Positions 5,049-52,403 are shown, counted from the stretch's first letter. The stretch: DNA of 64,000 nucleotides from Patescibacteria group bacterium (GCA_043804755.1 JAZDIT010000044.1:24-64023); one strand, 5' to 3'. Notes: generated by a model not told the origin, from the letters alone. Numbers and translations: made by a program.

Positions 5049-5114
5049 ATAGCTTAAATTTACCCGACAGGATTAAGATGGGTTTTCTAAATATTCTTGA
5101 ACTGGGGAAAACTG

Positions 5115-5143: not shown

Positions 5144-5217
5144 TTCTTTATGAGTATACTATCTACATCCTTCGTCTGTTGACGAAAGATTAGAACAAGT
5201 ACTAACCGTTTTAATTC

Positions 5218-6481: not shown

Positions 6482-6486
6482 AAGTT

Positions 6487-6879
6487 ATGGCTTTTAATAT
6501 TTTTAAAAAAGAGGAATCCGGTGCGAAAGAAGTTGCGGTTCCGAAAAGCGAGGAGAAAAAAGAAAAAACAGCGAGAACGCCGAAAGGAAAGAGGCCCGGT
6601 TTTGCCTGGAGGATTCTAAAAGCTGCGCATGTCACCGAAAAAGCAACCGATTTATCCAATAAGGACAAGTATATTTTCAACGTTTACAAGAATGCAAATA
6701 AAAACGAAATACGGAAAGAAGTAGAAAACATATACGGCGTAAATGTCGTTTCTGTGAACATAATCAACGTCCATGGAAAGAAAAGAAGATTGGGAAAGAC
6801 CATGGGAATCAAGCCGGGATACAAGAAAGCGATCGTCGGAATACAAAAAGGACAAAAAATAGAACTGATGCCGAGATAA
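6487..6879 (+). CDS. rplW: 50S ribosomal protein L23 (N-terminal basic extension)
   Basis: L23 core in the C-terminal 90 aa; operon position. Confidence 0.88.
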   Translation: MAFNIFKKEESGAKEVAVPKSEEKKEKTARTPKGKRPGFAWRILKAAHVTEKATDLSNKDKYIFNVYKNANKNEIRKEVENIYGVNVVSVNIINVHGKKRRLGKTMGIKPGYKKAIVGIQKGQKIELMPR

Positions 6880-27089: not shown

Positions 27090-27417
27090 AAAATTAAGCC
27101 TGAAAACCGATCAGAGAAAAGCGCTTTTGAGATCGGTGGCAGAATCTCTTTTCTTAAAAGAAAAGATAAAAACTACTGAAGCCAAAGCCAAGGAGGTTGC
27201 CGGTTTGGTGGAAAAAATGATAACGAAAGCCAAAAAAGGCGACATGGCGGCAGTGCGAAGTCTATCGAGATTTTTTTCGGATAGAATAGTGAAAAAGCTG
27301 ATAAAAGAAATCGCACCGAGATATGTGGCCAGAATGGGAGGCTATACCAGAATAATCAAACTTGGACCGAGGAAAAACGATGCCTCAAAAATGGCGATAG
27401 TGGAATTAGTTAAATAA
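27067..27417 (+). CDS. rplQ: 50S ribosomal protein L17
   Basis: L17 family. Confidence 0.9.
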   Translation: MRKRKKGRKLSLKTDQRKALLRSVAESLFLKEKIKTTEAKAKEVAGLVEKMITKAKKGDMAAVRSLSRFFSDRIVKKLIKEIAPRYVARMGGYTRIIKLGPRKNDASKMAIVELVK

Positions 27418-27555
27418 GAACCTTCGCTTCGCGAAGAACCTTGATTCTTCAGAAATAAGAACCTTCGCTTCGCGAAGAACCTCGATTCTTCGGAAATAAG
27501 AGCATTCGCTTCGCAAAGAACCTTGATTCTTCGCAAGCTCAAAAATGAAAATAAA
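27415..27555 (+). repeat. Tandem array of three intercistronic palindromic repeat units (41-nt period), rplQ-rplM junction
   Basis: TAAGAACCTTCGCTTCGCGAAGAACCTTGATTCTTCAGAAA, then a near-identical second unit, then a third unit extended to GCTCAAAAATGAAAATAAA-ATG. Confidence 0.9.
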
Positions 27556-27910: not shown

Positions 27911-28432
27911 ATGGAAAAAACCGTTACCAAAAAAATCGTAAAGAAGGAAGCAAAAGATGTGAAAGAAAAAAAACCGAGAGCGGTGAAGACTAAGAAAAAG
28001 GCTGAAATTTCAGCAGAAGTGGTCAAACTGGTTTCAAAACCCGGAAAATATTTTGAAGCTGTCGGAAGAAGAAAAACTTCAATAGCCAGAGTGAGAATTT
28101 TTCCGCAGGACGAAGGAGATTTTTCGGTCAACGGAAAAACCCTCGATCAATATTTCGGCGACAAAGATCTCCAAACGATAGCTCAAGATTCTCTGAATGC
28201 GATGAATACTTCCGATAAATTCCGCGTTTCAGTCGTATTAAAGGGCGGCGGTTTGCACTCACAGGCCGAAGCGATAAGACATGGAATAGCAAGAGCCTTG
28301 GTTTTATTTAATTCTGAATTCAAGAAAAAATTAAAAAAAGCAGGATTCTTGACGAGAGATCCGAGAATGAGAGAGAGAAAGAAGTTCGGTTTGAAGAGAG
28401 CAAGAAGAGCGCCACAGTGGCAAAAACGGTAA
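27911..28432 (+). CDS. rpsI: 30S ribosomal protein S9 (about 40-aa Lys-rich N-terminal extension)
   Basis: S9 core with C-terminal ...KRARRAPQWQKR. Confidence 0.9.
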   Translation: MEKTVTKKIVKKEAKDVKEKKPRAVKTKKKAEISAEVVKLVSKPGKYFEAVGRRKTSIARVRIFPQDEGDFSVNGKTLDQYFGDKDLQTIAQDSLNAMNTSDKFRVSVVLKGGGLHSQAEAIRHGIARALVLFNSEFKKKLKKAGFLTRDPRMRERKKFGLKRARRAPQWQKR

Positions 28433-28458
28433 AATCCATCATCCACACAATGATTTCA

Positions 28459-28485
28459 GGGTTGAGTTTTACTCAACCCTTTTAA
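28459..28485 (+). terminator. Rho-independent terminator after rpsI (GGGTTGAGTTTTACTCAACCC + TTTT)
   Basis: 8-bp stem plus T-run. Confidence 0.65.
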
Positions 28486-28520
28486 ATAATCCGTTATTCC
28501 TGTATAATTACATTACTAAT

Positions 28521-29204
28521 ATGCTACACGAGATTATAGATAAATTTTATTTGGACAGGCAAAAAGACAAAGATCAACGCCATTTTTATATTACCGATGC
28601 GGGAAAATGTCCGCGGGCTATATTCTTCAAATTCAAAAACGCTCCCAGGGAAGAAATGGGTGCGAATATTCTGAGAATGTTCGATCACGGAGATCACATC
28701 CATCAGTTGATAATGAAGCCTTTACTTTCCGTCAGGGAAATCCATGTGGTCGCTTCCGAAGTGAATATCCCGCCCCAGGCGCTTATTTCGGGCCGGGCAG
28801 ATGCGATTTTAAGCGATGGGAAAGATTTGTATGTTCTTGATATAAAAAGCATGAACAGCATGATTTTTAAAAACCTTGAAGCTGCCAAAGAAGAAAATAT
28901 TGATCAAGTCCAGCTATATTTGCACTATTTCAGGATTCCCAAAGGGTTGCTCTTATACGTTGATAAGGACAGGCTCGATTTGAAAGAGTTTGAGGTGGTC
29001 TATGACAAAGAAAGGGCGGAAAATCTTCTAAAAAATTTGAGTGAATTGAAAGAAAAAATAGATAAAAACACTATCCCTACGAGAATCGCAAGCTATCCCG
29101 ATGATTGGCAATGTAAATATTGCGCTTTCAAAGAAATTTGCAAAATGGCGAATGGCGGTGAGATTGGCTGGGAGGATTTCAAAAAAAAGATAGAAAAAAG
29201 TTAA
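28521..29204 (+). CDS. Cas4-like PD-(D/E)xK nuclease with Fe-S cluster cysteines (DUF83/RecB-nuclease family), standalone
   Basis: N-terminal Cys (GKCP), GRADAIL, LDIK, QLYLHY motifs; C-terminal C-x2-C-x5-C (CKYCAFKEIC). Confidence 0.7.
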   Translation: MLHEIIDKFYLDRQKDKDQRHFYITDAGKCPRAIFFKFKNAPREEMGANILRMFDHGDHIHQLIMKPLLSVREIHVVASEVNIPPQALISGRADAILSDGKDLYVLDIKSMNSMIFKNLEAAKEENIDQVQLYLHYFRIPKGLLLYVDKDRLDLKEFEVVYDKERAENLLKNLSELKEKIDKNTIPTRIASYPDDWQCKYCAFKEICKMANGGEIGWEDFKKKIEKS

Positions 29205-29240
29205 CAAAAAAACAGCCCGTACGGGCTGTTTTTTTGTTTG
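29205..29240. terminator. Bidirectional terminator between convergent genes (A7-CAGCCCGTACGGGCTG-T7)
   Basis: Perfect palindrome flanked by an A-run and a T-run. Confidence 0.75.
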
Positions 29241-29245
29241 AAAAC

Positions 29246-30538
29246 TTATGGAAGCAACTTCGCTGAAGAGAGAATATCGCCTTCCGACAATGCGTAAAGC
29301 CTGTTATCGGCGGTGTTGAAAGATAATTCAGGCGCATTGAATTCTCCGAAATCGTAAATGTTTATTTTGTCCCGATTGTCAATTTCGCTGATTTTTATGC
29401 TGTTTCCGGTATTGAACGCAATATAATTGGAATTTATCCAGAAGATATCTCCGATTTTTTCAGAAAAGCGGTTCAGGAACAATTTGTCGCCGGTTTTCCC
29501 CAGCGGCGGCTCATTGCTGTCCTGCAGGAAAAGAATCCAAATTTCGTAATCAGAAAAGTAGACGATTTTTCTCGAATCAGGCGATAACTTCAGGCCTTTT
29601 ATTGGTTCAAAGAATTCTTCAAAAATTCCCGATTGTGAATTCAACTGATATAATACTTGATTCTCCTGGATGAAAATTTGCCCGGGGAAAATAACTAATT
29701 TATATTCGGTTTCCTGTTTCAAAGAAAATGGTGTTGAATTGATTTTTTCCTTTTGCATATATGTTAGATCGGATTTGTAGACATACCCCGAATTATCCAG
29801 ATAATAAATATTACTGTTAATTCTTTGGGAAACGATAATATCCGCGGGAATCGAGGTGGTTGCTTTTTCTGTGAGAACCGGCGGATTTTTGCCGATATCG
29901 AGAGTAAAATTTTTCATCTGTTCTTTCATGCCGATATCCAGATTGATTTCAAGGGGATTTTGAGTAAATTGGACATTCAACAAATCTGCCCCCTTCTGAT
30001 AAATATCTTTTTCGCTAATCAGCTGGCTTTTGACGCCATTCGAAAGATTGTACAATTTTAACGTCCATATATCCGTTCCTCCTGCGGCTTGATTTTCCCG
30101 AATAACCATATTCTTTCCGTCAGGCGATAACCAAAAATCTTCTGCATTTTCGGTCAGAATTGTATAATTCTGATTTTCTGGAAACAAAACTATTGATTTT
30201 ATCTCGGTCACGGTTTTTTCTTTTATTTCCAGATTCTTTTCCCACGATTTGTATCCTTCCTTTTTTACAGTAATTTTATAATTTTTGGGCAATAAATTTT
30301 CAATAAGAATTGAACCGAAGAAAAAATCGGTCCTTTTCGACAACTTATCGTCAACATAGATTTCGGCTTGTTTTGGGTCAGTTTTTACGAAAATTCCGCC
30401 CGTTTGAGTTATTTTTTTGGCGGTAAAATCGAATCTATATCCCTGAGAATACAAAACCGCGACGGGAGCCGCTATTAAAAATAAAAGAAAGCAAGCGAAA
30501 AAGAGTATAGTTCGGGTTCTTTTAGTCATTTTAAACAT
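29246..30538 (-). CDS. Membrane-anchored PEGA-domain / TolB-like beta-propeller protein
   Basis: N-terminal TM helix; PEGA-like block (PKNYKITVKKEGYKSW); repeated SPDG/SPDS propeller-like motifs; start set at MFKM because the track's upstream extension covers a promoter. Confidence 0.55.
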   Translation of the reverse strand: MFKMTKRTRTILFFACFLLFLIAAPVAVLYSQGYRFDFTAKKITQTGGIFVKTDPKQAEIYVDDKLSKRTDFFFGSILIENLLPKNYKITVKKEGYKSWEKNLEIKEKTVTEIKSIVLFPENQNYTILTENAEDFWLSPDGKNMVIRENQAAGGTDIWTLKLYNLSNGVKSQLISEKDIYQKGADLLNVQFTQNPLEINLDIGMKEQMKNFTLDIGKNPPVLTEKATTSIPADIIVSQRINSNIYYLDNSGYVYKSDLTYMQKEKINSTPFSLKQETEYKLVIFPGQIFIQENQVLYQLNSQSGIFEEFFEPIKGLKLSPDSRKIVYFSDYEIWILFLQDSNEPPLGKTGDKLFLNRFSEKIGDIFWINSNYIAFNTGNSIKISEIDNRDKINIYDFGEFNAPELSFNTADNRLYALSEGDILSSAKLLP

Positions 30539-30542
30539 TCCT

Positions 30543-30571
30543 ATTCTACAACAAAAATGCGCTTTTTGCAA
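30543..30571 (-). promoter_or_regulatory. Candidate minus-strand promoter (TTGCAA-17-TAGAAT) for the PEGA protein gene
   Basis: Reverse-complement reading of 30543-30571. Confidence 0.4.
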
Positions 30572-30581
30572 TTGTGCTTAT

Positions 30582-30610
30582 TTGACAAAACTGTGATAAT
30601 TAGGTAGAAT
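30582..30610 (+). promoter_or_regulatory. Consensus-like sigma70 promoter TTGACA-17-TAGAAT for the GC-rich island genes
   Basis: 6/6 at -35, 17-nt spacer, 5/6 at -10; GGAGG ribosome-binding site 5 nt before the ATG at 30656. Confidence 0.55.
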
Positions 30611-30655
30611 ATTCCATAGTGGAAACAGCACCTGAACAACTGAAACGGAGGCGAA

Positions 30656-30892
30656 ATGGCTGCTAACATCGTCATCAGGACCCAGAGTAATACTGTCCAT
30701 GTGTTTGATAAAAATAACAATCCGGTTCCCTTATTTGAGGGGAAGTATGAGGAGGTAAAATATCGAATTTGCTTGCAGTTTCAAGGAAACGACACAATTT
30801 TTGTAAATCAAACGCGACCGGGTCAGAACGACTTGGTCAAGAAAAGGGAGTGGCAATATGAAAGCGGAAGAACTCAAAAAGGAATTCTATGA
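30656..30892 (+). CDS. Hypothetical protein (78 aa), GC-rich island
   Basis: ORF with promoter plus ribosome-binding site; about 50% GC against a 38% background. Confidence 0.5.
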   Translation: MAANIVIRTQSNTVHVFDKNNNPVPLFEGKYEEVKYRICLQFQGNDTIFVNQTRPGQNDLVKKREWQYESGRTQKGIL

Positions 30893-31580
30893 CGCCGGTA
30901 AGTTTACTGAAGGTCTGGCTGCGGTCATCAAGGCACTTCAGGATTCGACTGGGAACGATGATCCTGAATGGCCCAATTTGCTCGCCCTAAAAGCGTGGTT
31001 CCATTACCGCCTCAAAGACTATGCTCTCGCCCAGGATTCGGCAAAGGAAGCAGGGCCGGTTTTATGGGCCCGAGAGTGTTTGGCCTACATTGCCGCTTAC
31101 GTGGATAAAGATGATGCGGCATTGCGGCAATTTCTGGATGAGCTCGGCGATAACATCAACGTCACCAATGCCATGATCATTCGTGCCAGAGATAATGACA
31201 GCACTATTGCTCACGGCGAAGTCCTCATGAGAACACTTCTCATCCGCGGCGAAGGGGTAGAGACTGCTAATCTCTATCATAACGCCGGTCGTTACTTCCT
31301 GGCAAAGCCGAGGGACGACAGCGACTACGTTCTGGCTCTGGGATTTTTCACGGTCGCTGCGGCTCTATATGGCACTACTGGAAATTGGCATCACCGGGGC
31401 GCTCTCGCCTTCTGGCGATCTAGTGCCCTAGAACATTTTATGGACAAAAAATCTGCCATAAGCGCCGTCGAAGATTCTCTCCGCTGCTGGACCGAGGCGA
31501 TAGCTCTTGATCCGACAAACAAGCAGCATCTGGAAAAATGGCAAGGCGCCATTAACCGGTTAAGCGAACTCCGGAAATAA
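30858..31580 (+). CDS. Hypothetical alpha-helical protein (240 aa), GC-rich island
   Basis: AAAAGGGAG ribosome-binding site before the ATG; GC-rich codons; no recognisable family. Confidence 0.55.
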   Translation: MKAEELKKEFYDAGKFTEGLAAVIKALQDSTGNDDPEWPNLLALKAWFHYRLKDYALAQDSAKEAGPVLWARECLAYIAAYVDKDDAALRQFLDELGDNINVTNAMIIRARDNDSTIAHGEVLMRTLLIRGEGVETANLYHNAGRYFLAKPRDDSDYVLALGFFTVAAALYGTTGNWHHRGALAFWRSSALEHFMDKKSAISAVEDSLRCWTEAIALDPTNKQHLEKWQGAINRLSELRK

Positions 31581-31585
31581 TCAAT

Positions 31586-31627
31586 GCGCCCGGTCGACGT
31601 TGTCGACCAGGCGCTATTTTATTTCGT
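31586..31627 (+). terminator. Rho-independent terminator (13-bp GC-rich stem GCGCCCGGTCGAC/GTCGACCAGGCGC + TATTTTATTTCGTTTTT)
   Basis: Long hairpin plus T-rich tail. Confidence 0.75.
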
Positions 31628-31649
31628 TTTTAAATAGTAGAATATTAAA

Positions 31650-32834
31650 ATGACCATTTTCCCTAAAATAGAACAAATAACCAGAGATGCGACACTATCG
31701 CATTTCTTTTTGATGTTCGGATACAAGCTGTTTTCCATTTACTTTCCCTTGTTTTTGGTTTCAAAGAATTTTTCATTACACCAAATAGGGTATACAAATT
31801 TTCTCATATATCTTCCGATGGCGCTTTTTGCTCCAATTGCCGGATATCTCAGTCACAGAATAAATCTGGCGGTTCTTTCAGCCTTGGGCATCGCAGGATA
31901 CGGAATCTATGCTTTGGGGATGATTATTTTCCCCACTAATTTTACTTTTTATTTATTCCAGATAGTTTTGGGTATTTCAGCCGCTCTGTTTTTTGTCTCT
32001 TCCCGGGCGATGCTGATGGGTTCTAAATTGGAGAGCTACGACAGGGCTTTTGCATGGTTTTATTCGGCCAATTCCTATGCTGCCGCCATTTCCCCGGCAA
32101 TAGGGGCTTTAATCATCTGGAGATTCGGTTTTATCGGTGTTTTCGTTTTGAGTTTGGTTTTGCAGTTTTTCAACGCCATTTTCTTCTTTAGGCGATTTAA
32201 GAAACAAGTTACTCACCTGCCCGATAATATTAAGATTGGGGAATCTGTGAAAAATTATTTTTCATCCCTTGGAAAGATTAAGAATAAAAACAACTCTCCT
32301 TTCATTTTGATTTCTTTTTTAGTTTTGATTTTAGCCGGGTTTAACAATACCTTTTTTGTCTTGTATTTAAAAAATCTTGGTATGTCGCAGAGTCAAATTT
32401 TAATATTCAATTCTCTCTTAAACCTGGTGTTCTTGCCAACCTCTCTGTGGGTGATAAAATGGGTTTCCAAATTCAGGAGCGAGATCAATGTTTCTTGGGG
32501 AAGTCAGGTTGCCGGATTTTTTTCTTTTTTGCTTGGTGGATTCTACAGCATCATGAATTTTTATACCGTATTTGTTGTGACACTCGGAAACTACATTGGA
32601 AGCTTGATCGCCGACTCCGGTCGAAGCGGTCTTTTGTCCAGAAAGTTAAAAGATCACACCGAAGAATCGGCGGCTATCGATACTATTTTTTCTCCATTGG
32701 CCACGTCGATCGGGGCCGTAATCGGAGGATTGATCATCGGTCCCCTGGGGTATCCTTTGATATTCGTCGGTTTCGGGGCGTTGCTTTTCGGTTCGGGATT
32801 TTTTACGAGAATATTTACAAAGAGCGGAAATTAA
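31650..32834 (+). CDS. MFS transporter
   Basis: 12 predicted TM helices, MFS-like loop motifs. Confidence 0.75.
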   Translation: MTIFPKIEQITRDATLSHFFLMFGYKLFSIYFPLFLVSKNFSLHQIGYTNFLIYLPMALFAPIAGYLSHRINLAVLSALGIAGYGIYALGMIIFPTNFTFYLFQIVLGISAALFFVSSRAMLMGSKLESYDRAFAWFYSANSYAAAISPAIGALIIWRFGFIGVFVLSLVLQFFNAIFFFRRFKKQVTHLPDNIKIGESVKNYFSSLGKIKNKNNSPFILISFLVLILAGFNNTFFVLYLKNLGMSQSQILIFNSLLNLVFLPTSLWVIKWVSKFRSEINVSWGSQVAGFFSFLLGGFYSIMNFYTVFVVTLGNYIGSLIADSGRSGLLSRKLKDHTEESAAIDTIFSPLATSIGAVIGGLIIGPLGYPLIFVGFGALLFGSGFFTRIFTKSGN

Positions 32835-32925
32835 CTACACTCTGTTTCGGAAAGCACCCGTTGCCAGCCGATCGGGCGCTATTTTATTTCTTTTAAATTC
32901 TGCTAAAATATTGATGTTTCGGGGT

Positions 32926-32954
32926 TTGTCAAAAACAAAAAAATCGGATAATAT
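32926..32954 (+). promoter_or_regulatory. Candidate promoter TTGTCA-17-TAATAT upstream of mreB
   Basis: Spacing and hexamer matches. Confidence 0.3.
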
Positions 32955-32979
32955 TAAAAAAGCAAAGCGATAAAATTAC

Positions 32980-33993
32980 ATGTCTATATTCGTAAGAAAA
33001 ATCGGAATCGATTTGGGGACCTGCAACTCGGTCGTATTTATACCGGGCAAAGGGCCCGTTTTACAGGAGCCGTCAGTAGTGGCGGTGACTTTGGATGACA
33101 ACAAAATTCTGGCGGTAGGGGAGGCGGCAAAAGAAATGACAGGAAGGACTCCCGACACAATAAAAGTGTATCGTCCTTTGCGGGACGGCGTCATAGCCGA
33201 TTACAGGGTTACCCAGGCAATGCTTAAACATTTCATCGATAAAGTTTCGGGTACCCTGAAATTTTTAAAACCTGAATTGTTGATAGGAGTTCCCGCAGGC
33301 ATTACTTCCACGGAAAGGAGGGCGGTTATCGAAGCCGGAGTCTCGGCAGGAGCCAAAGCGGTTTATATAGCGAAAGAACCAATACTGTCTGCTATCGGAG
33401 CGGGGGTTCCCATTAATTCCTGTTCGGGACACATGATTGTAGATATTGGCGGAGGAACGTCGGAAGTGGCTGTAATTTCTTTGGGAGGAATAGTAACCTG
33501 CCATTCTCTGAGAGTAGCTGGAGACAAACTTGATGCCGCAGTTTCCGATTACATAAAGAAAAAATATAATCTCGCAATCGGGGAGCAGACTGCCGAAGAA
33601 ATCAAAATAAGAGTGGGTACCGCTTTGCCCGAAAAAGAGGAAAAATTCATCGAAATAAGAGGAAGAGATCTGGTTTTGGGTCTTCCCAAAAATATCAGAG
33701 TTTCTTCAAGCGAAGTTTGTGAAGCAATGAGCGACACTCTCGCCGAAATAATCCAGGTCATAAAATTGGTATTGAGGGACACTCCGCCGGAATTGTCGGC
33801 GGACATTATGGATAAAGGCATGGTTTTAGCCGGCGGCGGGGCTTTACTGCGGAATATCGACAAATTGATTTCCCAGAATACCGGAGTTCCGTGCATCCTG
33901 GCTGAAGATCCTCTGTTGTGCGTTGCAAAGGGAACGGGCTTGATGCTTGAAAGCTTGGACGTTTATAAAAAGAGCTTAATGAGCAAAAAATGA
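32980..33993 (+). CDS. mreB: Rod shape-determining protein MreB (paralog 1)
   Basis: GIDLGTCNSVVF ... actin-fold MreB family. Confidence 0.9.
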   Translation: MSIFVRKIGIDLGTCNSVVFIPGKGPVLQEPSVVAVTLDDNKILAVGEAAKEMTGRTPDTIKVYRPLRDGVIADYRVTQAMLKHFIDKVSGTLKFLKPELLIGVPAGITSTERRAVIEAGVSAGAKAVYIAKEPILSAIGAGVPINSCSGHMIVDIGGGTSEVAVISLGGIVTCHSLRVAGDKLDAAVSDYIKKKYNLAIGEQTAEEIKIRVGTALPEKEEKFIEIRGRDLVLGLPKNIRVSSSEVCEAMSDTLAEIIQVIKLVLRDTPPELSADIMDKGMVLAGGGALLRNIDKLISQNTGVPCILAEDPLLCVAKGTGLMLESLDVYKKSLMSKK

Positions 33994-36550: not shown

Positions 36551-37795
36551 ATGCGCCAATCAAAACTTTTTACAAAGATTTCAAAAGAATTTCCAAAAGA
36601 TGAAAGCAGCATCAACGCCCGTTTTCTGATAAGAGCCGGTTTTATCGACAAATTAATGTCGGGCGTATTTTCATTTCTTCCGTTGGGTTTGGCTGTCATG
36701 GGAAAAATTGAAAACATCATCCGCGAAGAAATGAACAAAATCGGAGGCCAGGAAATTTTATTGCCGGCTCTGCATCCCAAAGAAAACTGGCAGCTTACCG
36801 ACAGATGGAAATATCCCGAGATGTTTAAACTCAAGAATCGGGCGGAAAAAGATTTCAGTCTGGGGTGGACTCATGAGGAAATCGTCACGCCTTTGATCAA
36901 AAAATTCGTAAAATCCTACAAAGATCTTCCGGTTTACGTTTACCAGTTTCAGGATAAATTTCGCGACGAATTGCGGGCAAAATCCGGTCTTTTGAGAGGG
37001 ATGGAATTCACAATGAAAGATCTCTATTCTTTTCATGCGAGTGAGAGCGATTTAGACGAATATTATGAAAAGGTAAAAGGAGCTTATTTCAGGATTTTCG
37101 AGCGCTGCGGTCTTGGGAAAGTGACTTTTCTGACTTTGGCCTCGGGGGGCGCTTTCAGCAAATATTCCCACGAATTTCAGACGATAACCCCCTATGGGGA
37201 AGACGAGATACATCTCTGCCCTAAATGCAAAATTGCCGTCAATAAGGAAATTATCGAAGACGAAAAACATATGTGTCCCGGATGCAAACGCAAGAATATG
37301 GAAGCCAAGAAATCAATTGAAGTCGGCAATATTTTCAAACTCGGAAATAAATTTTCAGAACCCTTCGGGCTGAAATTCAAGGAAAAAGACGGCAGTGAAA
37401 AGTTATTGTCGATGGGATGCTACGGAATAGGTTTGGGGCGATTAATGGGAGCCGTCGTCGAAGTTCACCACGACGAAAAGGGAATTATCTGGCCAAGAAC
37501 CGTATCTCCTTTCCTGGCGCATCTGATTGAAATAAAGGGACAAAATTCGAAAGTTAAAAAAGAAGCCGAAAAACTTTATCAGGTTTTACAGAAAAAAGAA
37601 GTAGAAGTATTATATGACGATAGGGACGACAAAACTGCCGGAGAAAAGTTCGCAGAGTGCGATCTCATCGGGATTCCCGTTAGAATAGTCGTTTCCGAGA
37701 GAACTTTGGAAAGGGGCTGCGCCGAAATCAAAGGAAGGCAGGAAGAAAAAACAAAATTAATAAAATTAAGCCAAGTCACAAAAAATGTTGGATAA
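36551..37795 (+). CDS. proS: Prolyl-tRNA synthetase, short bacterial-type without editing insertion; Cys4 insert
   Basis: Class II motifs; CPKC...CPGC insertion. Confidence 0.85.
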   Translation: MRQSKLFTKISKEFPKDESSINARFLIRAGFIDKLMSGVFSFLPLGLAVMGKIENIIREEMNKIGGQEILLPALHPKENWQLTDRWKYPEMFKLKNRAEKDFSLGWTHEEIVTPLIKKFVKSYKDLPVYVYQFQDKFRDELRAKSGLLRGMEFTMKDLYSFHASESDLDEYYEKVKGAYFRIFERCGLGKVTFLTLASGGAFSKYSHEFQTITPYGEDEIHLCPKCKIAVNKEIIEDEKHMCPGCKRKNMEAKKSIEVGNIFKLGNKFSEPFGLKFKEKDGSEKLLSMGCYGIGLGRLMGAVVEVHHDEKGIIWPRTVSPFLAHLIEIKGQNSKVKKEAEKLYQVLQKKEVEVLYDDRDDKTAGEKFAECDLIGIPVRIVVSERTLERGCAEIKGRQEEKTKLIKLSQVTKNVG

Positions 37796-38837
37796 AATTT
37801 GGAAAATATTTTCGGAAGACATCGCAATTGATTTGGGAACGGCAAATTCCGAGGTTTATGTAAGGGGGCGGGGAATAATCATCCAGGAACCGAGCGTCGT
37901 TGCCATCAACCAAAAAACCGGGCAGATTCTTGCAATAGGCGAGGAGGCGAAAAAAATGGTTGGCAGAACGCCGGCTCATATCGTGGCTACAAGACCTCTG
38001 AGATCGGGCGTGATTTCCGATTTTGAAGTGACCGAGCAGATGCTCAGATATTTTATTGAAAAAGCCCAACGGAAAAAATTCGCTTTGTCGGCCAGGCCAA
38101 GAGTTATAATAGGTATTCCTTCCGGGGTGACGGAGGTGGAGAAAAAAGCCGTGATAGATGCCGCAAAATCGGCCGGAGCGAGGGAAGTTTTTTTGATTGA
38201 AGAACCAATGGCTGCTGCGATAGGCGCACGGCTTCCGGTACAGGAAGCGGGCGGGAATTTCATAGTCGATATCGGCGGAGGAACCGCGGAAATCGCAATA
38301 ATCTCCCTTGGCGGAATAGTTTTATCCAAAAGTTTGAGGATAGCGGGCGACAAACTGAATGAAGACATAATCCAGTTTGCTCAGGAAGAATATAAGCTCC
38401 TTATCGGGGAAAGAACCGCCGAAGCGATTAAAATCGGAATAGGATCGGCTTATCCGCTGAAGGAAAAAAGGGAGCTTCCCATGCGCGGAAGGAACTTGGT
38501 AACGGGCCTTCCTGAAGAAATACTCGTTTCGGATGAAGATATAAGGAGAGCCATGGAAAAATCCGTAAAGAGAATTGTCACTGAAATCAAAACCGCAGTG
38601 GAAGAGAGTCCGCCGGAATTGCTGGCTGACATCATGGCGTCGGGAATTTATTTTTCGGGCGGGGGATCTTTGTTGCGCGGATTGGATATTCTTGTGGCTA
38701 AAGAAACGAAAATTCCCACGCGCCTTATTGAAGACCCGATGACTGCGGTTGTGAGGGGAGCGGGAATGGTTCTGGAAAATCTTGATGAACTCGAAGACGT
38801 GCTCGTGGAAACTGCGGAACTCGAACCGCCAAAATAA
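37785..38837 (+). CDS. mreB: Rod shape-determining protein MreB (paralog 2)
   Basis: AIDLGTANSEVYV...; full MreB fold. Confidence 0.9.
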   Translation: MLDKIWKIFSEDIAIDLGTANSEVYVRGRGIIIQEPSVVAINQKTGQILAIGEEAKKMVGRTPAHIVATRPLRSGVISDFEVTEQMLRYFIEKAQRKKFALSARPRVIIGIPSGVTEVEKKAVIDAAKSAGAREVFLIEEPMAAAIGARLPVQEAGGNFIVDIGGGTAEIAIISLGGIVLSKSLRIAGDKLNEDIIQFAQEEYKLLIGERTAEAIKIGIGSAYPLKEKRELPMRGRNLVTGLPEEILVSDEDIRRAMEKSVKRIVTEIKTAVEESPPELLADIMASGIYFSGGGSLLRGLDILVAKETKIPTRLIEDPMTAVVRGAGMVLENLDELEDVLVETAELEPPK

Positions 38838-38890
38838 GAACCTTCGCTTCGCGAAGAACCTTGATTCCTCGCTAACGCTCAGAAATAACG
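38835..38890 (+). repeat. Intercistronic repeat unit, mreB-gatC junction
   Basis: TAAGAACCTTCGCTTCGCGAAGAACCTTGATTCCTCGCTAACGCTCAGAAATAACG-ATG. Confidence 0.85.
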
Positions 38891-40598: not shown

Positions 40599-41126
40599 AT
40601 GCCGACAGATATAAACGATATAATCCAATATTTGAGTCCGATTATTTCAACCATTTACAGATGGTTGCCCGTATTAAGGATTGTCTTTTTGGCGATCTCC
40701 GTATTTCTTTTTGGGTTTATAATTTTCGCTTTGCTTAATACAACCTGGCTGAATAAATTATATCTGTGGGATGCGAAGGAATTTCTTACCAAACAGCCCT
40801 ATACGGTCAAAAAACTTTTTAAACAATGGCAGAAAATAAAAGTCCGGTTGGAGACAGGTATGGAAACGGAATATAAGCTGGCCGTTATTGAAGCGGACTC
40901 TCTCACTGATGATATTTTAAAGAGGATGGGATTTTTTGGAGAAACGCTGGGAGAAAGATTGGAAAAGGTGACAACAGCTATTCTCCCCGATATTGCCGAA
41001 TTGGCGGAAGCGCATAAAATCCGCAATAATATAGTCCGTGACCCCGACTACAGGTTATCAGCGGACGAAACAAAGAAAGTAATCGGTTCGTACGAAAAAG
41101 CCTTGGTCGAATTGCAGGCGCTGTAA
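40599..41126 (+). CDS. Hypothetical membrane-anchored protein
   Basis: N-terminal TM helix, then a helical cytoplasmic domain. Confidence 0.5.
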   Translation: MPTDINDIIQYLSPIISTIYRWLPVLRIVFLAISVFLFGFIIFALLNTTWLNKLYLWDAKEFLTKQPYTVKKLFKQWQKIKVRLETGMETEYKLAVIEADSLTDDILKRMGFFGETLGERLEKVTTAILPDIAELAEAHKIRNNIVRDPDYRLSADETKKVIGSYEKALVELQAL

Positions 41127-41133
41127 CGGATTA

Positions 41134-41162
41134 TTGAAATCGGGAGGAAAACGTGTTAAACT
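41134..41162 (+). promoter_or_regulatory. Candidate promoter TTGAAA-17-TAAACT upstream of the tRNA cluster
   Basis: Hexamer matches and spacing. Confidence 0.3.
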
Positions 41163-41177
41163 GTAGGCACCGCGCAT

Positions 41178-41249
41178 CGCGGGGTAGAGAACGGGTTATC
41201 TCGCGACTCTCATAAGGTCGAGAAGTGGGTTCAAGTCCCACCCCCGCAA
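41178..41249 (+). tRNA. tRNA-Met (CAU), initiator-like
   Basis: Hand-folded cloverleaf: acceptor CGCGGGG/CCCCGCA with C1:A72 mismatch, A11:U24 in the D stem, anticodon loop CUCAUAA, T arm GTGGG-TTCAAGT-CCCAC. Confidence 0.65.
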
Positions 41250-41295
41250 CAATCTGACTTCTCCGCCTAATAGGCGCTAAAAAGCCTCAGACCAG

Positions 41296-41367
41296 GCCGG
41301 CATAGCTCAGTGGTAGAGCAATGGCATCATAAGCCAGTGGTCGAGGGTCCGAATCCCCCTGCCGGCA
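41296..41367 (+). tRNA. tRNA with CAU anticodon (elongator Met or Ile2)
   Basis: Acceptor GCCGGCA/TGCCGGC, D arm GCTCAGTGGTAGAGC, anticodon loop AUCAUAA. Confidence 0.6.
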
Positions 41368-41379
41368 TAAAGAAAACGA

Positions 41380-41455
41380 GGACTCATGGTGTAGCCTGGT
41401 CTAACACGCCTCCCTGTCACGGAGGAGATCGGGGGTTCAAATCCCCCTGGGTCCG
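41380..41455 (+). tRNA. tRNA-Asp (GUC)
   Basis: Acceptor GGACTCA/TGGGTCC, anticodon loop CUGUCAC, T arm GGGGG-TTCAAAT-CCCCC, discriminator G. Confidence 0.65.
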
Positions 41456-41502
41456 CAACATAAAATATCCTTTTTGGATGTTTTTTGTTTTTGTTGGAAA
41501 AT

Positions 41503-41536
41503 TAATAAAAATAAAAACCCCGGTCTCGAACCGGGG
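41503..41536 (-). terminator. Rho-independent terminator for the minus-strand pyrEF gene (CCCCGGT-CTCGA-ACCGGGG, then a T-run on the minus strand)
   Basis: Hairpin with an A-run on the plus side (a T-run for the minus transcript). Confidence 0.65.
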
Positions 41537-41559
41537 CTTCACGCATTTATGATTGCGTG

Positions 41560-42867
41560 TTAGTTGATGTTAAGCTCCTCCTTCAGGAGGCGTTTCACTT
41601 CGGCAACGGGATCGGCCGCGCCGAAAATCTGTCGGCCCATCACGAGCTTGCTGGCGCCATTGTTTCTGGCATTGACCGGAGTATCTACCCTCCCTTGGTC
41701 GTTTGGATCAACACCAGGCGAACGGATTCCCGGAGTCGCGAGTTCCTTGTCGGGATAAAGGCGCTTGAGTTCTGACACCTCTTCCGCAGAACAGACGAAA
41801 CCATGGACGCCGGCGCGATTGGCAATCTCCGCCAGCTTCAGGACTTCTTCCATCGGGCGGCGTGTATAAATTTCCTCACAGGTGCCTTCCTTGAGCGAGG
41901 TCAGTACGGTAACTGCGAGAACCTTTGTCGGAGTGTCTTTGAGTAACTCGACCGCTGCCTTTGCCATCTCCTCCCCACCCGATGCATGGATGGTTGCGGC
42001 CCATGGTGGGTTGGGAAGCAAGTGTTTGATGATATTCTCCACAGTGTTCTTGATGTCATGGCATTTGAGGTCTGCCATGACCCGGCCGTACACCTGCAGG
42101 TTCGGGATGAGGTCCTTGATCCCCTCGTTTAGGAGGAGGTCGTTAGCCTTCAGGATACATCCTGAAGTTCTCAACTGGTCGATCACCGGCAGGATTTCCT
42201 CCCAGCTCTTTCCGTCCAGAGCGACTATGAGGGGATTTTTCTGTTCCACCTCGGCATCGCACCGCAACATGAGCCCGCTCGTAATGAGATATTTGCGGAT
42301 GTCATGAAGAGTTAAACCGGGCCAGATGCCTACCTTGATGCCCATTTCCTGGAACTTCTTTTTCCATCCCTGTTGCCGGTCAACCAGCACGATGTGGGGC
42401 AGAACTTGGAGTCCCATGGAAACGCACTTTAGGTATGGCGCTAGTTTGGAGGCGCCGTCGGTTATGACGTCATCGATTATGCACACGCTTTCATCGAATC
42501 TTGCCTCGCCGATGACGTCTGCTTTGGCCACCCTTCCTTCTTTCGGTTTCTCCCGAAGGGTAACGTAGGGGATGCCCGTTTTGACGGATATGAGGCCAGC
42601 AAAACAGCTGACCGCATCGGGCACTTCCGCGAACCGGTCGGGGCCGAGGCGCCGCAGTGCGTTGGCATATGTCTCCGCTAAGAAATCTAGCGCCTTTGGG
42701 TAGTTTCTGGCGTCTCTCAGATTAATATAAATATCTGTCTTCCCGCCACTCTTAAGCGGCAGGCTCCGGGCGTTGTCGGACTTGATCAAACCGTAATGGA
42801 GGAGCTCCTCTATTACAGAGATCTGTTCCCATTTAGTCAGCCAGGGTTGTCCAGAAATGTCCATCAT
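41560..42867 (-). CDS. Fused orotate phosphoribosyltransferase / OMP decarboxylase (PyrE-PyrF, UMP-synthase-like); GC-rich, probably acquired
   Basis: N-terminal PRPP-binding motif (IIDDVITDGAS); C-terminal OMPdecase motifs (LIVALDG, DLKCHDIKNT); about 55% GC; GGAGGGAG ribosome-binding site. Confidence 0.75.
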   Translation of the reverse strand: MMDISGQPWLTKWEQISVIEELLHYGLIKSDNARSLPLKSGGKTDIYINLRDARNYPKALDFLAETYANALRRLGPDRFAEVPDAVSCFAGLISVKTGIPYVTLREKPKEGRVAKADVIGEARFDESVCIIDDVITDGASKLAPYLKCVSMGLQVLPHIVLVDRQQGWKKKFQEMGIKVGIWPGLTLHDIRKYLITSGLMLRCDAEVEQKNPLIVALDGKSWEEILPVIDQLRTSGCILKANDLLLNEGIKDLIPNLQVYGRVMADLKCHDIKNTVENIIKHLLPNPPWAATIHASGGEEMAKAAVELLKDTPTKVLAVTVLTSLKEGTCEEIYTRRPMEEVLKLAEIANRAGVHGFVCSAEEVSELKRLYPDKELATPGIRSPGVDPNDQGRVDTPVNARNNGASKLVMGRQIFGAADPVAEVKRLLKEELNIN

Positions 42868-43029
42868 CTTTCTCCCTCCCTTTTTAGATTTTGAGCCAAT
42901 AAAATCTTATAAATTTACCTCCTTTTATTTATTGAATTTTCGGCTTGCTGACCCCAATATGCCACAAAATTTAAAAAAAATCAAGAGGCACTTTTGGCTG
43001 GCTATTAGAGTTTTCCACATATTTTGGGG

Positions 43030-49354: not shown

Positions 49355-49894
49355 ATGGCACAAAGACCATCAAAAGACGAATATTATCTCAATATTTCGA
49401 GACAAATCGGTTTAAGATCAACCTGTTTTAGAAATAAAGGGGGCGCGCTTATTGTTCGCGAAGATCAGATTGTTGCCACCGGTTATATCGGCGCTCCGAG
49501 GAAGACAAAAGACTGTTTGGAAAGAGGTGAATGCTTAAGAGACAGATTAAAAATTCCTCACGGGAAAAGGTACGAGATGTGTCGTTCGGTGCATGCCGAA
49601 ATGAATGCGATAGTCAACGCAGCCAGAGCTGGAGTAAGTCTTCTCGGCGCGGATATTTACATTTCCTTTGAAAATCCTAAAGATGGTACTCCTAGAGACA
49701 GTTTTCCGTGCTTTATATGCAAAAAATTAATCATCAATTGCGGAATAAACAGGGTAGTTTGTTCTACCGCAGAAGATAAAATGATAACCTTTCGGGTGTC
49801 TGATTGGGTTAAAGATTGGCAGGAAAAGGATCTCGTGGACGATGAACATCAATTCGGCACAGATTTAAATCTCAAGGAAGGACTCAAGGAATAA
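49355..49894 (+). CDS. dCMP deaminase (cytidine/deoxycytidylate deaminase family)
   Basis: HAEMNAI ... PCFICKKLI zinc-binding motifs. Confidence 0.85.
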   Translation: MAQRPSKDEYYLNISRQIGLRSTCFRNKGGALIVREDQIVATGYIGAPRKTKDCLERGECLRDRLKIPHGKRYEMCRSVHAEMNAIVNAARAGVSLLGADIYISFENPKDGTPRDSFPCFICKKLIINCGINRVVCSTAEDKMITFRVSDWVKDWQEKDLVDDEHQFGTDLNLKEGLKE

Positions 49895-49895
49895 C

Positions 49896-50468
49896 ATGCA
49901 AAATAAAATTGTTTGCGTTGTGGGTATGGCGGGTTCGGGAAAGAGCATAGTGTCTGATGAGCTGGTTAAAACCGGCTTTTTATATTTAAGATTCGGTCAG
50001 ATCACACTTGATAAAATCAAAGAAGATGGACTTGAAGTAAATGAGGTTAATGAAAAAAAAGTGAGGGAGGATTTTAGAAAACAGTTTGGAATGGGGGCTT
50101 TTGCAATTTTGAACATTCCTAAAATTGAAGAATTGCTAAAAAAGACAAATGTGGCAGTTGACGGACTTTACAGCTGGTCGGAATACAGAATCCTAAAGGA
50201 GAAATACGGCGATTCGATGTATGTTGTGGCAGTGTATGCTCCGCCGAAAATGAGGTATGATAGATTAGAAAATCGGAGTGCCGAAAATGACAATAATAAC
50301 CGTTTCCGGCCGTTCACAAGAAAAGAAGCAAAGAATAGAGATTACGCAGAGATCGAAAACATAGAGAAGGGGGGACCGATCGCGATGGCGGATTTCACCA
50401 TAATGAATACCGGTACGACAGATGAACTTAAAAAAGAGATTAATAAATTTTTAACGCTTATTGGATAA
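49896..50468 (+). CDS. P-loop nucleoside/nucleotide kinase of unknown specificity
   Basis: GMAGSGKS Walker A; NMP-kinase-like size; sits between dCMP deaminase and tmk. Confidence 0.45.
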   Translation: MQNKIVCVVGMAGSGKSIVSDELVKTGFLYLRFGQITLDKIKEDGLEVNEVNEKKVREDFRKQFGMGAFAILNIPKIEELLKKTNVAVDGLYSWSEYRILKEKYGDSMYVVAVYAPPKMRYDRLENRSAENDNNNRFRPFTRKEAKNRDYAEIENIEKGGPIAMADFTIMNTGTTDELKKEINKFLTLIG

Positions 50469-50473
50469 ACACC

Positions 50474-52401: not shown

Positions 52402-52403
52402 AT

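What the first reader, a model, noticed from the sequence alone, without database searches (positions are those of the whole stretch)
28433..32979. Accessory stretch between rpsI and mreB with a standalone Cas4-like nuclease
Between the conserved ribosomal block and the mreB-holB-frr block lies a convergent pair separated by a perfect bidirectional terminator. One gene is a Cas4/RecB-family PD-(D/E)xK nuclease with the four-cysteine Fe-S signature (C...C-x2-C-x5-C) and a QhxxY motif, with no CRISPR array or other cas genes in the window. The other is a membrane-anchored PEGA / beta-propeller protein. The GC-rich two-gene island and an MFS transporter follow. Standalone Cas4-like nucleases occur in phages and defence islands, so this context is suggestive.
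Basis: partly seen in the sequence, partly recalled or inferred. Interest (0 to 1): 0.55.

Follow-up and report, generated by a model that had tools for sequence, protein, structure and literature searches.

The report
Core solo-Cas4 nuclease beside rpsI
The Cas4-like nuclease is real, but it is a strongly conserved, fixed-position gene in a whole clade of tiny-genome Patescibacteria rather than part of a mobile or defence island, and solo Cas4 genes in these bacteria have already been reported.

Summary
There is a 227-aa Cas4-family PD-(D/E)xK nuclease with four Fe-S cysteines (28521-29204, +). It converges on a membrane-anchored PEGA protein across a perfect 18+18-nt bidirectional terminator. 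ORF78, a GC-rich ORF240 and an MFS transporter follow, then mreB. The window holds no CRISPR array and no cas gene.

The "accessory/defence" reading fails for the nuclease. Of 130 related loci with readable upstream flank, 122 have the gene directly downstream of rpsI. Of 103 with readable downstream flank, 82 have the convergent PEGA gene, followed by mreB-holB-frr. Six of six loci found through the PEGA protein alone also carry it. It is as conserved as the neighbouring ribosomal proteins (about 70% identity), and every catalytic and cysteine residue is invariant in 257 sequences (H61 is Q in 13). Phage and viral relatives reach only 29% identity or less.

Only the PEGA-mreB slot is variable. 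ORF240 is a rare TPR-like gene and looks horizontally acquired.

Solo-Cas4 in Candidate Phyla Radiation (CPR) bacteria, grouping with DPANN archaea, was published in 2017; its function is unknown.

I infer a housekeeping DNA-end-processing nuclease. One new detail is occasional gene-precise allele replacement at the fixed locus.

The parts
27911..28432 (+). rpsI (ribosomal protein S9), the conserved upstream neighbour of the nuclease gene
   Evidence: Pfam Ribosomal_S9, 143 bits. It lies upstream on the same strand in 122 of 130 assessable related loci.
28458..28480 (+). Hairpin followed by UUUU in the 88-nt rpsI-nuclease spacer; a possible partial terminator or attenuator
   Evidence: RNA fold of 28433-28520 gives -17.3 kcal/mol, z -4.1. 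In many relatives this spacer is only 1-4 nt, so the hairpin is not a conserved feature.
28481..28508 (+). Promoter-like site TTTAAA-16-TATAAT, ending 12 nt before the nuclease ATG
   Evidence: Consensus scan, 10 of 12 matches. This is a pattern match only.
28521..29204 (+). Solo Cas4-family PD-(D/E)xK nuclease with a four-cysteine [4Fe-4S] site, 227 aa
   Evidence: Family, structure and motif evidence. Catalytic and Cys residues are invariant in 257 unique orthologues. About 70% identity across the clade.
29203..29238 (.). Perfect 18+18-nt palindrome with A and T tracts: a bidirectional intrinsic terminator between the convergent genes
   Evidence: It is specific to this genome or a subset of genomes. 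In many relatives the two ORFs abut or overlap at their 3' ends.
29246..30571 (-). Membrane-anchored PEGA-domain protein (longest ORF; likely start ATG at 30529). It is the conserved convergent partner and lies divergent from mreB.
   Evidence: Pfam PEGA 30.1 bits; PD40 19.6 bits, below cutoff. A convergent orthologue is present in 82 of 103 assessable loci at about 43% identity. 1103 homologues were found.
30543..30610 (.). Divergent promoter-like region: TTGCAA-17-TAGAAT on the minus strand for the PEGA gene, and TTGACA-17-TAGAAT on the plus strand for ORF78
   Evidence: Consensus scan; the plus-strand site scores 11 of 12. Pattern match only.
30656..30892 (+). ORF78, a small gene of unknown function with a GGAGG ribosome-binding site; first gene of the inserted pair
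   Evidence: No family hits. One weak homologue (34% over 61 aa, E 2e-5) lies in the same variable slot of L020. GC is 40.5%.
30858..31580 (+). ORF240, a GC-rich all-helical TPR-like protein; rare and probably horizontally acquired
   Evidence: Only 7 other homologues among 5.8 billion proteins, one with a TPR_12 domain. The model has pLDDT 94.4 and 13 helices, with weak TPR structural matches. It sits in the same slot in L091 and L107 and next to msrA/msrB elsewhere. Its GC is 48-52% in every host, including a locus of 37% GC.
31586..31614 (+). GC-rich hairpin plus T-rich tail after ORF240 (terminator-like)
   Evidence: -23.7 kcal/mol, z -4.9.
31604..31629 (+). First copy of a 26-nt direct repeat (88% identical). 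The second copy is at 32869-32894, so the pair brackets the MFS gene. A second repeat pair lies at 31632-31650 and 32941-32959.
   Evidence: the repeat finder families D6 and D11. This may be a duplicated terminator-tail and promoter module, or a trace of an insertion; not resolved.
31650..32834 (+). MFS transporter, a frequent but not universal occupant of the PEGA-mreB slot
   Evidence: Pfam MFS_1, 86.8 bits. It is present in the slot in a minority of relatives.
32980..33993 (+). mreB, the start of the conserved mreB-holB-frr-rseP-proS block that closes the interval
   Evidence: Pfam MreB_Mbl, 450 bits. It lies downstream in 71 of 80 assessable loci.

Best explanation
The gene at 28521-29204 encodes a solo (non-CRISPR) Cas4-family nuclease. 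It has a PD-(D/E)xK metal-dependent active site (H61, D94, D107, K109, Q129, Y133) and a [4Fe-4S] cluster held by C30, C198, C201 and C207.

It is a vertically inherited core gene of a clade of Patescibacteria whose records are titled Nealsonbacteria, Gribaldobacteria, Paceibacterota and Minisyncoccales. It is fixed at the 3' end of the rplM-rpsI ribosomal-protein gene pair and is often so close to rpsI that the two must be co-transcribed.

Most likely function (inferred, not shown): a housekeeping DNA nuclease that processes DNA ends or flaps for recombination, repair or replication restart in these minimal genomes. It would act like the characterised stand-alone Cas4 enzymes and the nuclease domains of AddB, RecB, Dna2, Exo5 and MGME1.

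The rest of the interval is not one functional unit.
- The PEGA envelope protein is another conserved core gene.
- The slot between PEGA and mreB is a small variable site. In this genome it holds ORF78, the horizontally acquired TPR-like ORF240, and an MFS transporter.
For: Identity and intact chemistry:
- Pfam matches are above cutoff.
- PDB 4ic1 matches by sequence (E 1e-10) and by fold (E 1.4e-11; pLDDT 94.4).
- All catalytic and Cys residues are invariant in 257 unique orthologues.

Core gene, not accessory:
- Relatives were confirmed at 162 places in the GTDB species-representative genomes; the 80 loci examined come from 79 different assemblies.
- rpsI lies upstream in 122 of 130 loci. 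The gap is 20 nt or less in 40 and 150 nt or less in 87.
- The convergent PEGA gene is present in 82 of 103 loci, and mreB downstream in 71 of 80.
- Six of six loci sampled through the PEGA protein carry the nuclease.

Strong purifying selection:
- Mean identity to the window copy is 69.6%, against 59-75% for seven neighbouring ribosomal-protein and rpoA genes.
- Pairwise distance is 0.33, against 0.34 for those genes concatenated.

Not CRISPR-linked:
- TIGR00372 scores 49.5 bits, below its cutoff of 65.
- No array and no cas genes were found in the 64-kb window.

Not viral:
- Identity is 29% or less in IMG/VR and in INPHARED phages.

Literature:
- Solo-Cas4 is reported in many CPR genomes, is mainly vertically inherited and groups with DPANN homologues (PMC5704561).
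- A 47%-identical relative is annotated from a Woesearchaeota archaeon.
- A 48%-identical relative sits next to aIF5B-type IF2 and Kae1.
Against: - No experiment or partner gene ties this protein to repair. No helicase, recombinase or ligase is linked to it in any locus examined.
- I could not test whether these genomes lack RecBCD, AddAB or RecJ.
- Its distances fit the ribosomal-protein tree worse than each control gene does. Spearman is 0.35 against 0.47-0.72, and the sd of z is 1.77 against about 1.0-1.1.
- There are clear gene-precise allele replacements. That pattern is more usual for conflict-related genes.
- In this particular window a hairpin and a promoter-like site separate the gene from rpsI, so co-transcription here is uncertain.
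- The locus sets from the two collections partly overlap, so the counts are not fully independent.
Confidence: 0.6

Rival explanations
1. Innate, non-CRISPR defence nuclease, or a dual repair-and-defence hub like RecBCD. The solo Cas4 would degrade incoming linear phage or plasmid DNA. Occasional allele replacement would reflect pressure from phage-encoded inhibitors.
For: - The closest profile matches are phage and Cas4 families: PHROG 1706 at 111 bits, and PADLOC Cas4 models.
- Gene-precise allele replacement and a mosaic gene sit at a fixed locus. L141 and L167 have flanks 85-99% identical but a gene interior only 59-73% identical. L032 and L014/L164 have the gene at about 84% nucleotide identity but ribosomal-protein genes at about 66%.
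- The literature notes DPANN solo-Cas4 genes next to restriction-modification genes (PMC5704561).
Against: - Conservation equals that of ribosomal proteins, and the active site is invariant.
- No defence gene neighbours it in the window.
- Flanks of the related loci match housekeeping genes, and six gene-called loci show no defence-type Pfam family. Genes in their variable slots were not screened against defence models.
- Position is fixed and presence is universal in the clade.
- Only about 2% of locus pairs are discordant.
- Chimeric metagenome assembly could explain some mosaics.
Confidence: 0.18
2. Nucleotide-salvage nuclease. It would digest imported or host-derived DNA to feed nucleotide pools in bacteria that cannot make nucleotides de novo.
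For: - The window encodes a nucleotide-salvage cluster: dCMP deaminase, kinases, ThyX and DeoC at 49355-53096.
- The CPR literature proposes DNA recycling (bioRxiv 10.1101/2022.04.20.488981).
- Universal presence and strong conservation fit an essential metabolic role.
Against: - The gene is not linked to salvage genes or to DNA-uptake genes in any locus.
- Cas4-family enzymes characterised so far are end- or structure-specific processing nucleases, not bulk digestive DNases (my own knowledge; PMC12501428).
- The protein is cytoplasmic, with no signal peptide visible in the sequence.
Confidence: 0.12
3. A CRISPR adaptation Cas4 that works in trans with a cas1-cas2 module and array elsewhere in the genome.
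For: - Family membership, and annotation as 'CRISPR/Cas system-associated exonuclease Cas4' by one source.
- One Nealsonbacteria genome is reported to have a type V system with cas4-cas1-cas2.
Against: - It scores below the trusted cutoff of the CRISPR Cas4 equivalog model: 49.5 against 65 bits.
- No cas gene or array lies in the 64-kb window, and the flanks of about 150 related loci match only housekeeping genes.
- CRISPR-Cas is reported in only about 2.4% of Parcubacteria and Microgenomates (quoted), yet the gene is present throughout the clade.
- In the reported type V system the cas4 gene lies in the cas operon, not at rpsI.
Confidence: 0.03
4. One reading: a phage- or mobile-element-derived accessory gene inside a strain-variable island.
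For: - Standalone Cas4-like genes do occur in phages.
- The interval includes a variable slot and a compositionally foreign ORF240.
- Seven loci have 1.2-4.4-kb insertions between rpsI and the nuclease gene.
Against: - Synteny is conserved in 94% of assessable loci.
- The gene's GC (39%) is close to the window's (41.7%).
- No integrase, repeats or att-like sites surround it.
- The nearest viral homologues are 29% identical or less.
Confidence: 0.03

Closest known systems
Solo-Cas4 of Candidate Phyla Radiation bacteria and DPANN archaea (Hudaiberdiev et al. 2017, PMC5704561)
   Same: It is a stand-alone Cas4-family protein encoded outside cas loci in small-genome Parcubacteria. It is mainly vertically inherited, its nearest outgroup homologues are archaeal (Woesearchaeota; an aIF5B/Kae1 context), and its function is uncharacterised.
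   Different: That paper does not mention ribosomal genes (the word 'ribosomal' occurs 0 times in it). Added here: the fixed position after rpsI, conservation at ribosomal-protein level, and gene-precise allele replacement.
SSO0001 Cas4 of Sulfolobus solfataricus (PDB 4ic1)
   Same: It is the best sequence match (E 1e-10) and the best structural match (E 1.4e-11, TM about 0.6). It shares the metal ligands, the QxxxY motif and the four-Cys cluster.
   Different: Identity is only about 24%. SSO0001 is described as CRISPR-associated, whereas this protein has no cas context and falls below the TIGR00372 cutoff.
Solo-Cas4 of Methanosarcina mazei (PMC12501428)
   Same: It is also a stand-alone Cas4-family protein with a [4Fe-4S] cluster. 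It is a metal-dependent DNase whose expression did not respond to virus challenge (abstract).
   Different: It is archaeal and a high-order oligomer, and it is stated to lack the RecB motif. The protein here keeps a full RecB-type motif set. I did not compare the two sequences directly.
Phage Cas4-domain exonucleases (PHROG 1706 and 1990)
   Same: These are the highest-scoring profile matches, at 111 and 88.5 bits. They are single-domain proteins of similar size.
   Different: Actual phage proteins are 29% identical or less. The gene here is chromosomal, syntenic and has host-like GC.
Nuclease domains of AddB, RecB and AdnAB, and Dna2, Exo5 and MGME1
   Same: They share the PD-(D/E)xK fold. 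AddB, Dna2 and Exo5 also have the Fe-S 'staple'. All appear among the structural matches. They provide the mechanistic model for end resection.
   Different: There is no fused or adjacent helicase. Similarity is distant (13-19% identity in the structural alignments).

Membership tests
Cas4 family (Pfam PF01930 / PF12705 Cas4-like PD-(D/E)xK nucleases) | Profile match above the curated cutoff | tested here: met
   Cas_Cas4 scores 30.9 bits (cutoff 22.7) and PDDEXK_1 scores 39 bits (cutoff 22).
Cas4 family (Pfam PF01930 / PF12705 Cas4-like PD-(D/E)xK nucleases) | RecB-type catalytic motifs: H, D, (D/E)xK and QxxxY | tested here: met
   H61, D94, D107-x-K109 and Q129-x3-Y133 align to the SSO0001 metal ligands. 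They are invariant in 257 orthologues, except that H61 is Q in 13.
Cas4 family (Pfam PF01930 / PF12705 Cas4-like PD-(D/E)xK nucleases) | Four cysteines (one N-terminal plus C-x2-C-x5-C) that bind a [4Fe-4S] cluster | tested here: met
   C30, C198, C201 and C207 are present and invariant. Actual cluster binding cannot be tested with these tools.
Cas4 family (Pfam PF01930 / PF12705 Cas4-like PD-(D/E)xK nucleases) | Cas4 / lambda-exonuclease-like fold | tested here: met
   The model has pLDDT 94.4. The top PDB matches are 4ic1, the Cas4-Cas1-Cas2 complex 8d3l, and 4r5q.
Cas4 family (Pfam PF01930 / PF12705 Cas4-like PD-(D/E)xK nucleases) | Metal-dependent DNA nuclease activity | not testable with these tools
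   This requires purified protein.
CRISPR-associated Cas4 (adaptation module; NCBIfam TIGR00372 equivalog) | Score at or above the equivalog trusted cutoff | tested here: not met
   49.5 bits against a cutoff of 65.
CRISPR-associated Cas4 (adaptation module; NCBIfam TIGR00372 equivalog) | Encoded next to cas1/cas2 and a CRISPR array | tested here: not met
   The window has no array and no cas gene among the ORFs scanned. The flanks of about 150 related loci match housekeeping genes.
Solo-Cas4 (Hudaiberdiev et al. 2017) | A Cas4-family gene outside any cas locus, predominantly vertically inherited | tested here: met
   Synteny is conserved. Distances broadly track the ribosomal proteins (ratio 0.95), with a minority of discordant pairs.
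Defence island / accessory genomic island | Presence or absence varies between related genomes | tested here: not met
   The nuclease and PEGA genes are present in nearly all relatives. The feature is met only for ORF78 and ORF240, and partly for the MFS gene.
Defence island / accessory genomic island | Neighbouring genes belong to known defence systems or mobile elements | tested here: not met
   PADLOC gives no hit for PEGA, ORF78, ORF240 or MFS. No integrase or flanking repeats were found around the nuclease.
Phage / mobile-element Cas4 (MGE-Cas4) | Encoded on a virus or mobile element, or closely related to such copies | tested here: not met
   IMG/VR relatives are 20-29% identical and INPHARED phage relatives are 29% or less.
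AddAB / RecBCD / AdnAB helicase-nuclease | Nuclease domain fused to, or in an operon with, an SF1 helicase | tested here: not met
   It is a single-domain protein of 227 aa, and no helicase lies in any flank.

The most novel reading that the evidence does not exclude
In this Patescibacteria clade the solo Cas4 may be an essential, ribosomal-operon-embedded replacement for the missing RecBCD/AddAB-type end-processing machinery. It may also act as an innate barrier to foreign linear DNA. The gene-precise allele swaps at a fixed locus would then record conflict with phage-encoded nuclease inhibitors. That would assign the first biological role to the long-enigmatic solo-Cas4 proteins of CPR bacteria and DPANN archaea.
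Probability: 0.15. Interest if true: 0.55.

Novelty: already known. Interest (0 to 1): 0.27.

Why it matters
It corrects a tempting misreading: a Cas4-like gene without CRISPR is not in itself a sign of a defence or phage island. In this clade it is one of the most conserved genes in the neighbourhood.

Solo-Cas4 proteins are over-represented in ultra-small bacteria and archaea, and their role is still unknown. Three observations here point to a clean system for future biochemical work:
- the fixed position after rpsI;
- conservation at the level of ribosomal proteins;
- occasional allele replacement.

None of this changes the current picture of the family.

Tried and rejected
(1) CRISPR context. 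The tandem-repeat finder and Rfam found no array. The only repeats are a 41-nt x3 intergenic element and short chance matches.

(2) Defence-model scan. PADLOC hit only Cas4 profiles for the nuclease and nothing for the four other proteins.

(3) Viral origin. A scan of IMG/VR and a tblastn of INPHARED phages gave only distant relatives.

(4) Wider family context. The first diverse alignment (A3) was too divergent to build search patterns. A narrower one (A4) mostly recovered the same orthologous group. It also returned ten distant homologues in unrelated contexts, of which I inspected two (L096 and L146, both among housekeeping genes).

(5) Functional partner. I looked for one in the 1.2-4.4-kb insertions between rpsI and the nuclease gene. 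They hold a 666-aa membrane protein, HAD-like, HicB-like and small unknown ORFs, with nothing consistent.

(6) Literature on RecBCD/AddAB/RecJ content of Patescibacteria. The searches returned nothing useful, so the claim that the nuclease replaces missing resection machinery stays untested.

(7) ORF240 function. No family hit; the fold is a generic TPR-like solenoid.

(8) Vertical-inheritance test. A first run with strict coverage left only 12 loci. I repeated it with 85 loci.

(9) Whole-genome search for cas1/cas2.

Full report
WHAT IS THERE

The window is almost the whole of a 64,026-bp contig of a Patescibacteria metagenome-assembled genome. The nuclease is 100% identical to an NCBI protein named 'PD-(D/E)XK nuclease family protein [Patescibacteria group bacterium]'. 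Between rpsI (27911-28432) and mreB (32980-33993) lie five ORFs.
- A 227-aa protein at 28521-29204 (+).
- A convergent 441-aa ORF at 29246-30571 (-). Its likely real start is the ATG at 30529, preceded by AGGA.
- ORF78 at 30656-30892 (+).
- ORF240 at 30858-31580 (+).
- A 394-aa MFS transporter at 31650-32834 (+).

THE NUCLEASE

The 227-aa protein passes the Pfam cutoffs for PDDEXK_1 and Cas_Cas4. It matches the Sulfolobus Cas4 SSO0001 (PDB 4ic1) at E 1e-10, with all metal ligands and cysteines aligned. Its model is confident (pLDDT 94.4), and 4ic1 is the best structural match. Cas4-Cas1-Cas2 complexes, MGME1, lambda exonuclease, Exo5, AdnAB and Dna2 follow.

The convergent genes are separated by a perfect 18+18-nt palindrome with A and T tracts. 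It folds at about -25 kcal/mol on either strand.

I found no CRISPR array. None of the 35 window ORFs that I scanned against Pfam is a cas gene. They include tRNA synthetases, gyrB, dnaE, nusG, a nucleotide-salvage cluster and gatB. The small correction is that only ORF240 is GC-rich (51.5%); ORF78 is 40.5%.

IS THE INTERVAL ACCESSORY? NO, NOT THE NUCLEASE

The protein has more than 1,800 homologues. The best 120 are all 71-84% identical, apart from the window's own sequence, and come from Nealsonbacteria, Pacebacteria, Wildermuthbacteria, Gribaldobacteria and unclassified Parcubacteria.

A scan of GTDB species-representative genomes confirmed relatives at 162 places. A metagenome scan added more. 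I mapped the window's own genes onto these loci.
- rpsI lies upstream on the same strand in 122 of 130 loci with enough upstream sequence. The stop-to-start gap is 20 nt or less in 40 and 150 nt or less in 87.
- The convergent PEGA gene is present in 82 of 103 loci.
- mreB lies 1.3-5.2 kb downstream in 71 of 80 loci.

To avoid ascertainment through the nuclease itself, I also sampled six long contigs through homologues of the PEGA protein. All six have a roughly 230-aa PDDEXK_1 gene between rpsI and PEGA.

The minimal arrangement, seen in about 16-19 loci, is rpsI - nuclease - PEGA(-) - mreB with nothing else.

The two collections overlap in part, so the counts are not fully independent.

HOW CONSTRAINED IS IT?

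Mean identity to the window copy is 69.6%. The comparison values are rpsI 62%, rplM 64.5%, rpoA 67%, rpsM 75%, mreB 75.5%, PEGA 43% and holB 50%. Across 85 loci plus the window copy (3,655 pairs) its mean pairwise distance is 0.33, against 0.34 for seven concatenated ribosomal-protein and rpoA genes. In 257 unique orthologues C30, D94, D107, K109, Q129, Y133, C198, C201 and C207 are invariant, and H61 is H in 244 and Q in 13. This is the profile of an active enzyme under strong purifying selection, not of an arms-race gene.

WHERE DOES IT SIT IN THE FAMILY?

It falls below the trusted cutoff of the CRISPR-Cas4 equivalog model (49.5 against 65 bits). Its best profile matches are phage 'Cas4-domain exonuclease' families (PHROG 1706 at 111 bits). 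Real viral proteins, however, are only 20-29% identical.

An exhaustive search of 1.84 billion cluster representatives shows a tight orthologous group. Only 23 representatives score E<1e-30, and identity then drops steeply to 35-54%.

Ten loci from the metagenome scan carry these more distant relatives, and none shows rpsI or any other window gene alongside. I inspected two in detail.
- One lies beside an aIF5B-type IF2 and Kae1, which suggests an archaeon.
- Another lies beside RNase HII.

A 47%-identical relative is annotated from a Woesearchaeota archaeon.

This matches Hudaiberdiev et al. 2017 (PMC5704561). That paper reports the following.
- Solo-Cas4 occurs in many CPR genomes, including Parcubacteria.
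- Some of these proteins group with DPANN homologues.
- Inheritance is mainly vertical.
- The function is unknown.

The kind of gene is therefore already known. That paper never mentions ribosomal genes, so the rpsI linkage is a small addition.

AN UNEXPECTED DETAIL: ALLELE REPLACEMENT

The nuclease's distances follow the ribosomal-protein distances less well than each ribosomal gene follows the others. Spearman is 0.35 against 0.47-0.72. The standard deviation of standardised residuals is 1.77 against about 1.0-1.1. About 2% of pairs lie beyond z=4, against essentially none for the controls. The outliers trace to a few loci.
- L141 and L167 have flanks 85-99% identical, but the interior of the nuclease gene is only 59-73% identical. 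High identity returns at the gene's 3' end, so the gene is a mosaic.
- The opposite case involves two Nealsonbacteria (L032, from a complete genome, and L027) and Gribaldobacteria (L014 and L164). They share about 84% nucleotide identity exactly across the gene, while their ribosomal-protein genes are about 66% identical.

So the locus is fixed, but the allele is occasionally replaced by homologous exchange. Chimeric assembly could explain some cases, though hardly the complete-genome one.

THE REST OF THE INTERVAL

The PEGA protein is a conserved envelope protein. It has an N-terminal hydrophobic anchor and a PEGA domain. Propeller support is weak: PD40 is below its cutoff, although some sources name homologues as WD40 or TolB-like.

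The perfect terminator is not conserved. In many relatives the two ORFs abut or overlap at their 3' ends.

The truly variable site is between PEGA and mreB, which adds 0 to about 3.8 kb. It often holds the MFS gene, and in one locus an EPSP-synthase-like gene.

ORF240 has only seven other homologues in 5.8 billion proteins.
- It is a TPR-like helical solenoid.
- It sits in the same slot in two relatives (L091, L107) but next to msrA/msrB in other genomes.
- It keeps 48-52% GC whatever the host GC.

This points to a small horizontally spread gene.

ORF78 has a good ribosome-binding site and one weak homologue in the same slot of L020. A 26-nt direct repeat brackets the MFS gene.

MECHANISM

Shown: the fold, the complete active site, the Fe-S cysteines, the synteny and the level of constraint.

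Inferred: the biological role. I commit to a housekeeping DNA-end or flap-processing nuclease serving recombination, repair or replication restart. It is transcribed with or just after rplM-rpsI. Confidence is about 0.6 for the whole statement and much higher for 'core solo-Cas4, not an island'.

Rivals:
- An innate-defence or dual RecBCD-like role (0.18), which the allele swaps favour.
- Nucleotide salvage (0.12).
- Trans-acting CRISPR adaptation (0.03).

I could not scan whole genomes for cas1/cas2 or for other resection nucleases. That is the most useful missing computation.

VERDICT

The feature is an already described kind of gene. Interest is low to moderate.

Noticed in passing
window 27412-27533 and 38838-38872: A 35-41-nt intergenic element (GAACCTTCGCTTCGCGAAGAACCTTGATTCTTCGG, with an internal palindrome) occurs as three tandem copies between rplQ and rplM. 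A fourth copy lies directly after the second mreB paralogue and before gatC. None is expected by chance. It looks like a small REP- or MITE-like repeat, or a reused terminator module.
   Followed up: partly
L141 vs L167; L032/L027 vs L014/L164 (nuclease gene at locus coordinates 4515-5204, 4071-4751, 6001-6675, 3861-4538): There is gene-precise allele replacement or mosaicism of the solo-Cas4 at its fixed locus. The gene's interior is far more divergent, or in other pairs far more similar, than the flanking ribosomal-protein genes. Its distances are over-dispersed relative to seven control genes.
   Followed up: partly
window 41001-43000: This stretch is the most GC-rich in the window (50-53%). 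It holds three tRNA genes (41178-41455) and a minus-strand 435-aa ORF (41560-42867). The C-terminal half of that ORF is an OMP-decarboxylase/HUMPS-family domain; the N-terminal roughly 210 aa match nothing.
   Followed up: no
window 31604-31629 / 32869-32894 and 31632-31650 / 32941-32959: Two short direct repeats (26 nt at 88% identity and 19 nt at 84%) lie upstream of the MFS gene and upstream of mreB, so they bracket the MFS gene. They may be a duplicated terminator-tail and promoter module or a footprint of the MFS insertion.
   Followed up: no
L036, L093, L094, L105, L119, L133 (between rpsI and the nuclease gene): In 7 of 122 loci, 1.2-4.4 kb of extra genes are inserted between rpsI and the nuclease gene. 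Three of them (L036, L093, L094) share a 666-676-aa membrane protein followed by a HAD-like protein. L119 carries HicB-like small ORFs. This junction is a second, rarer insertion site.
   Followed up: partly
L086-L090 (ORF240 homologues): Outside the rpsI-mreB locus, the rare TPR-like ORF240 family sits between msrA and msrB (methionine sulfoxide reductases) in several groundwater contigs. This hints at a link to oxidative-stress repair.
   Followed up: no
L035 and L044 (same assembly JBDRGQ01): One MAG carries two copies of the nuclease on two contigs, 68% and 67% identical to the window copy. One contig has the upstream half of the synteny and the other the downstream half. This probably reflects two strains binned together or duplicated contig ends.
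   Followed up: no
window 49355-53096: A compact nucleotide-salvage cluster holds a dCMP/cytidine deaminase, a P-loop kinase, thymidylate kinase, a ThyX-like protein with a long extension (431 aa) and a DeoC-like aldolase. It lies just after nusG-rplK.
   Followed up: no
window 32980-33993 and 37785-38837: Two mreB paralogues lie 3.8 kb apart and are about 48% identical to each other's orthologues in relatives. Both are conserved across the clade's synteny block.
   Followed up: no
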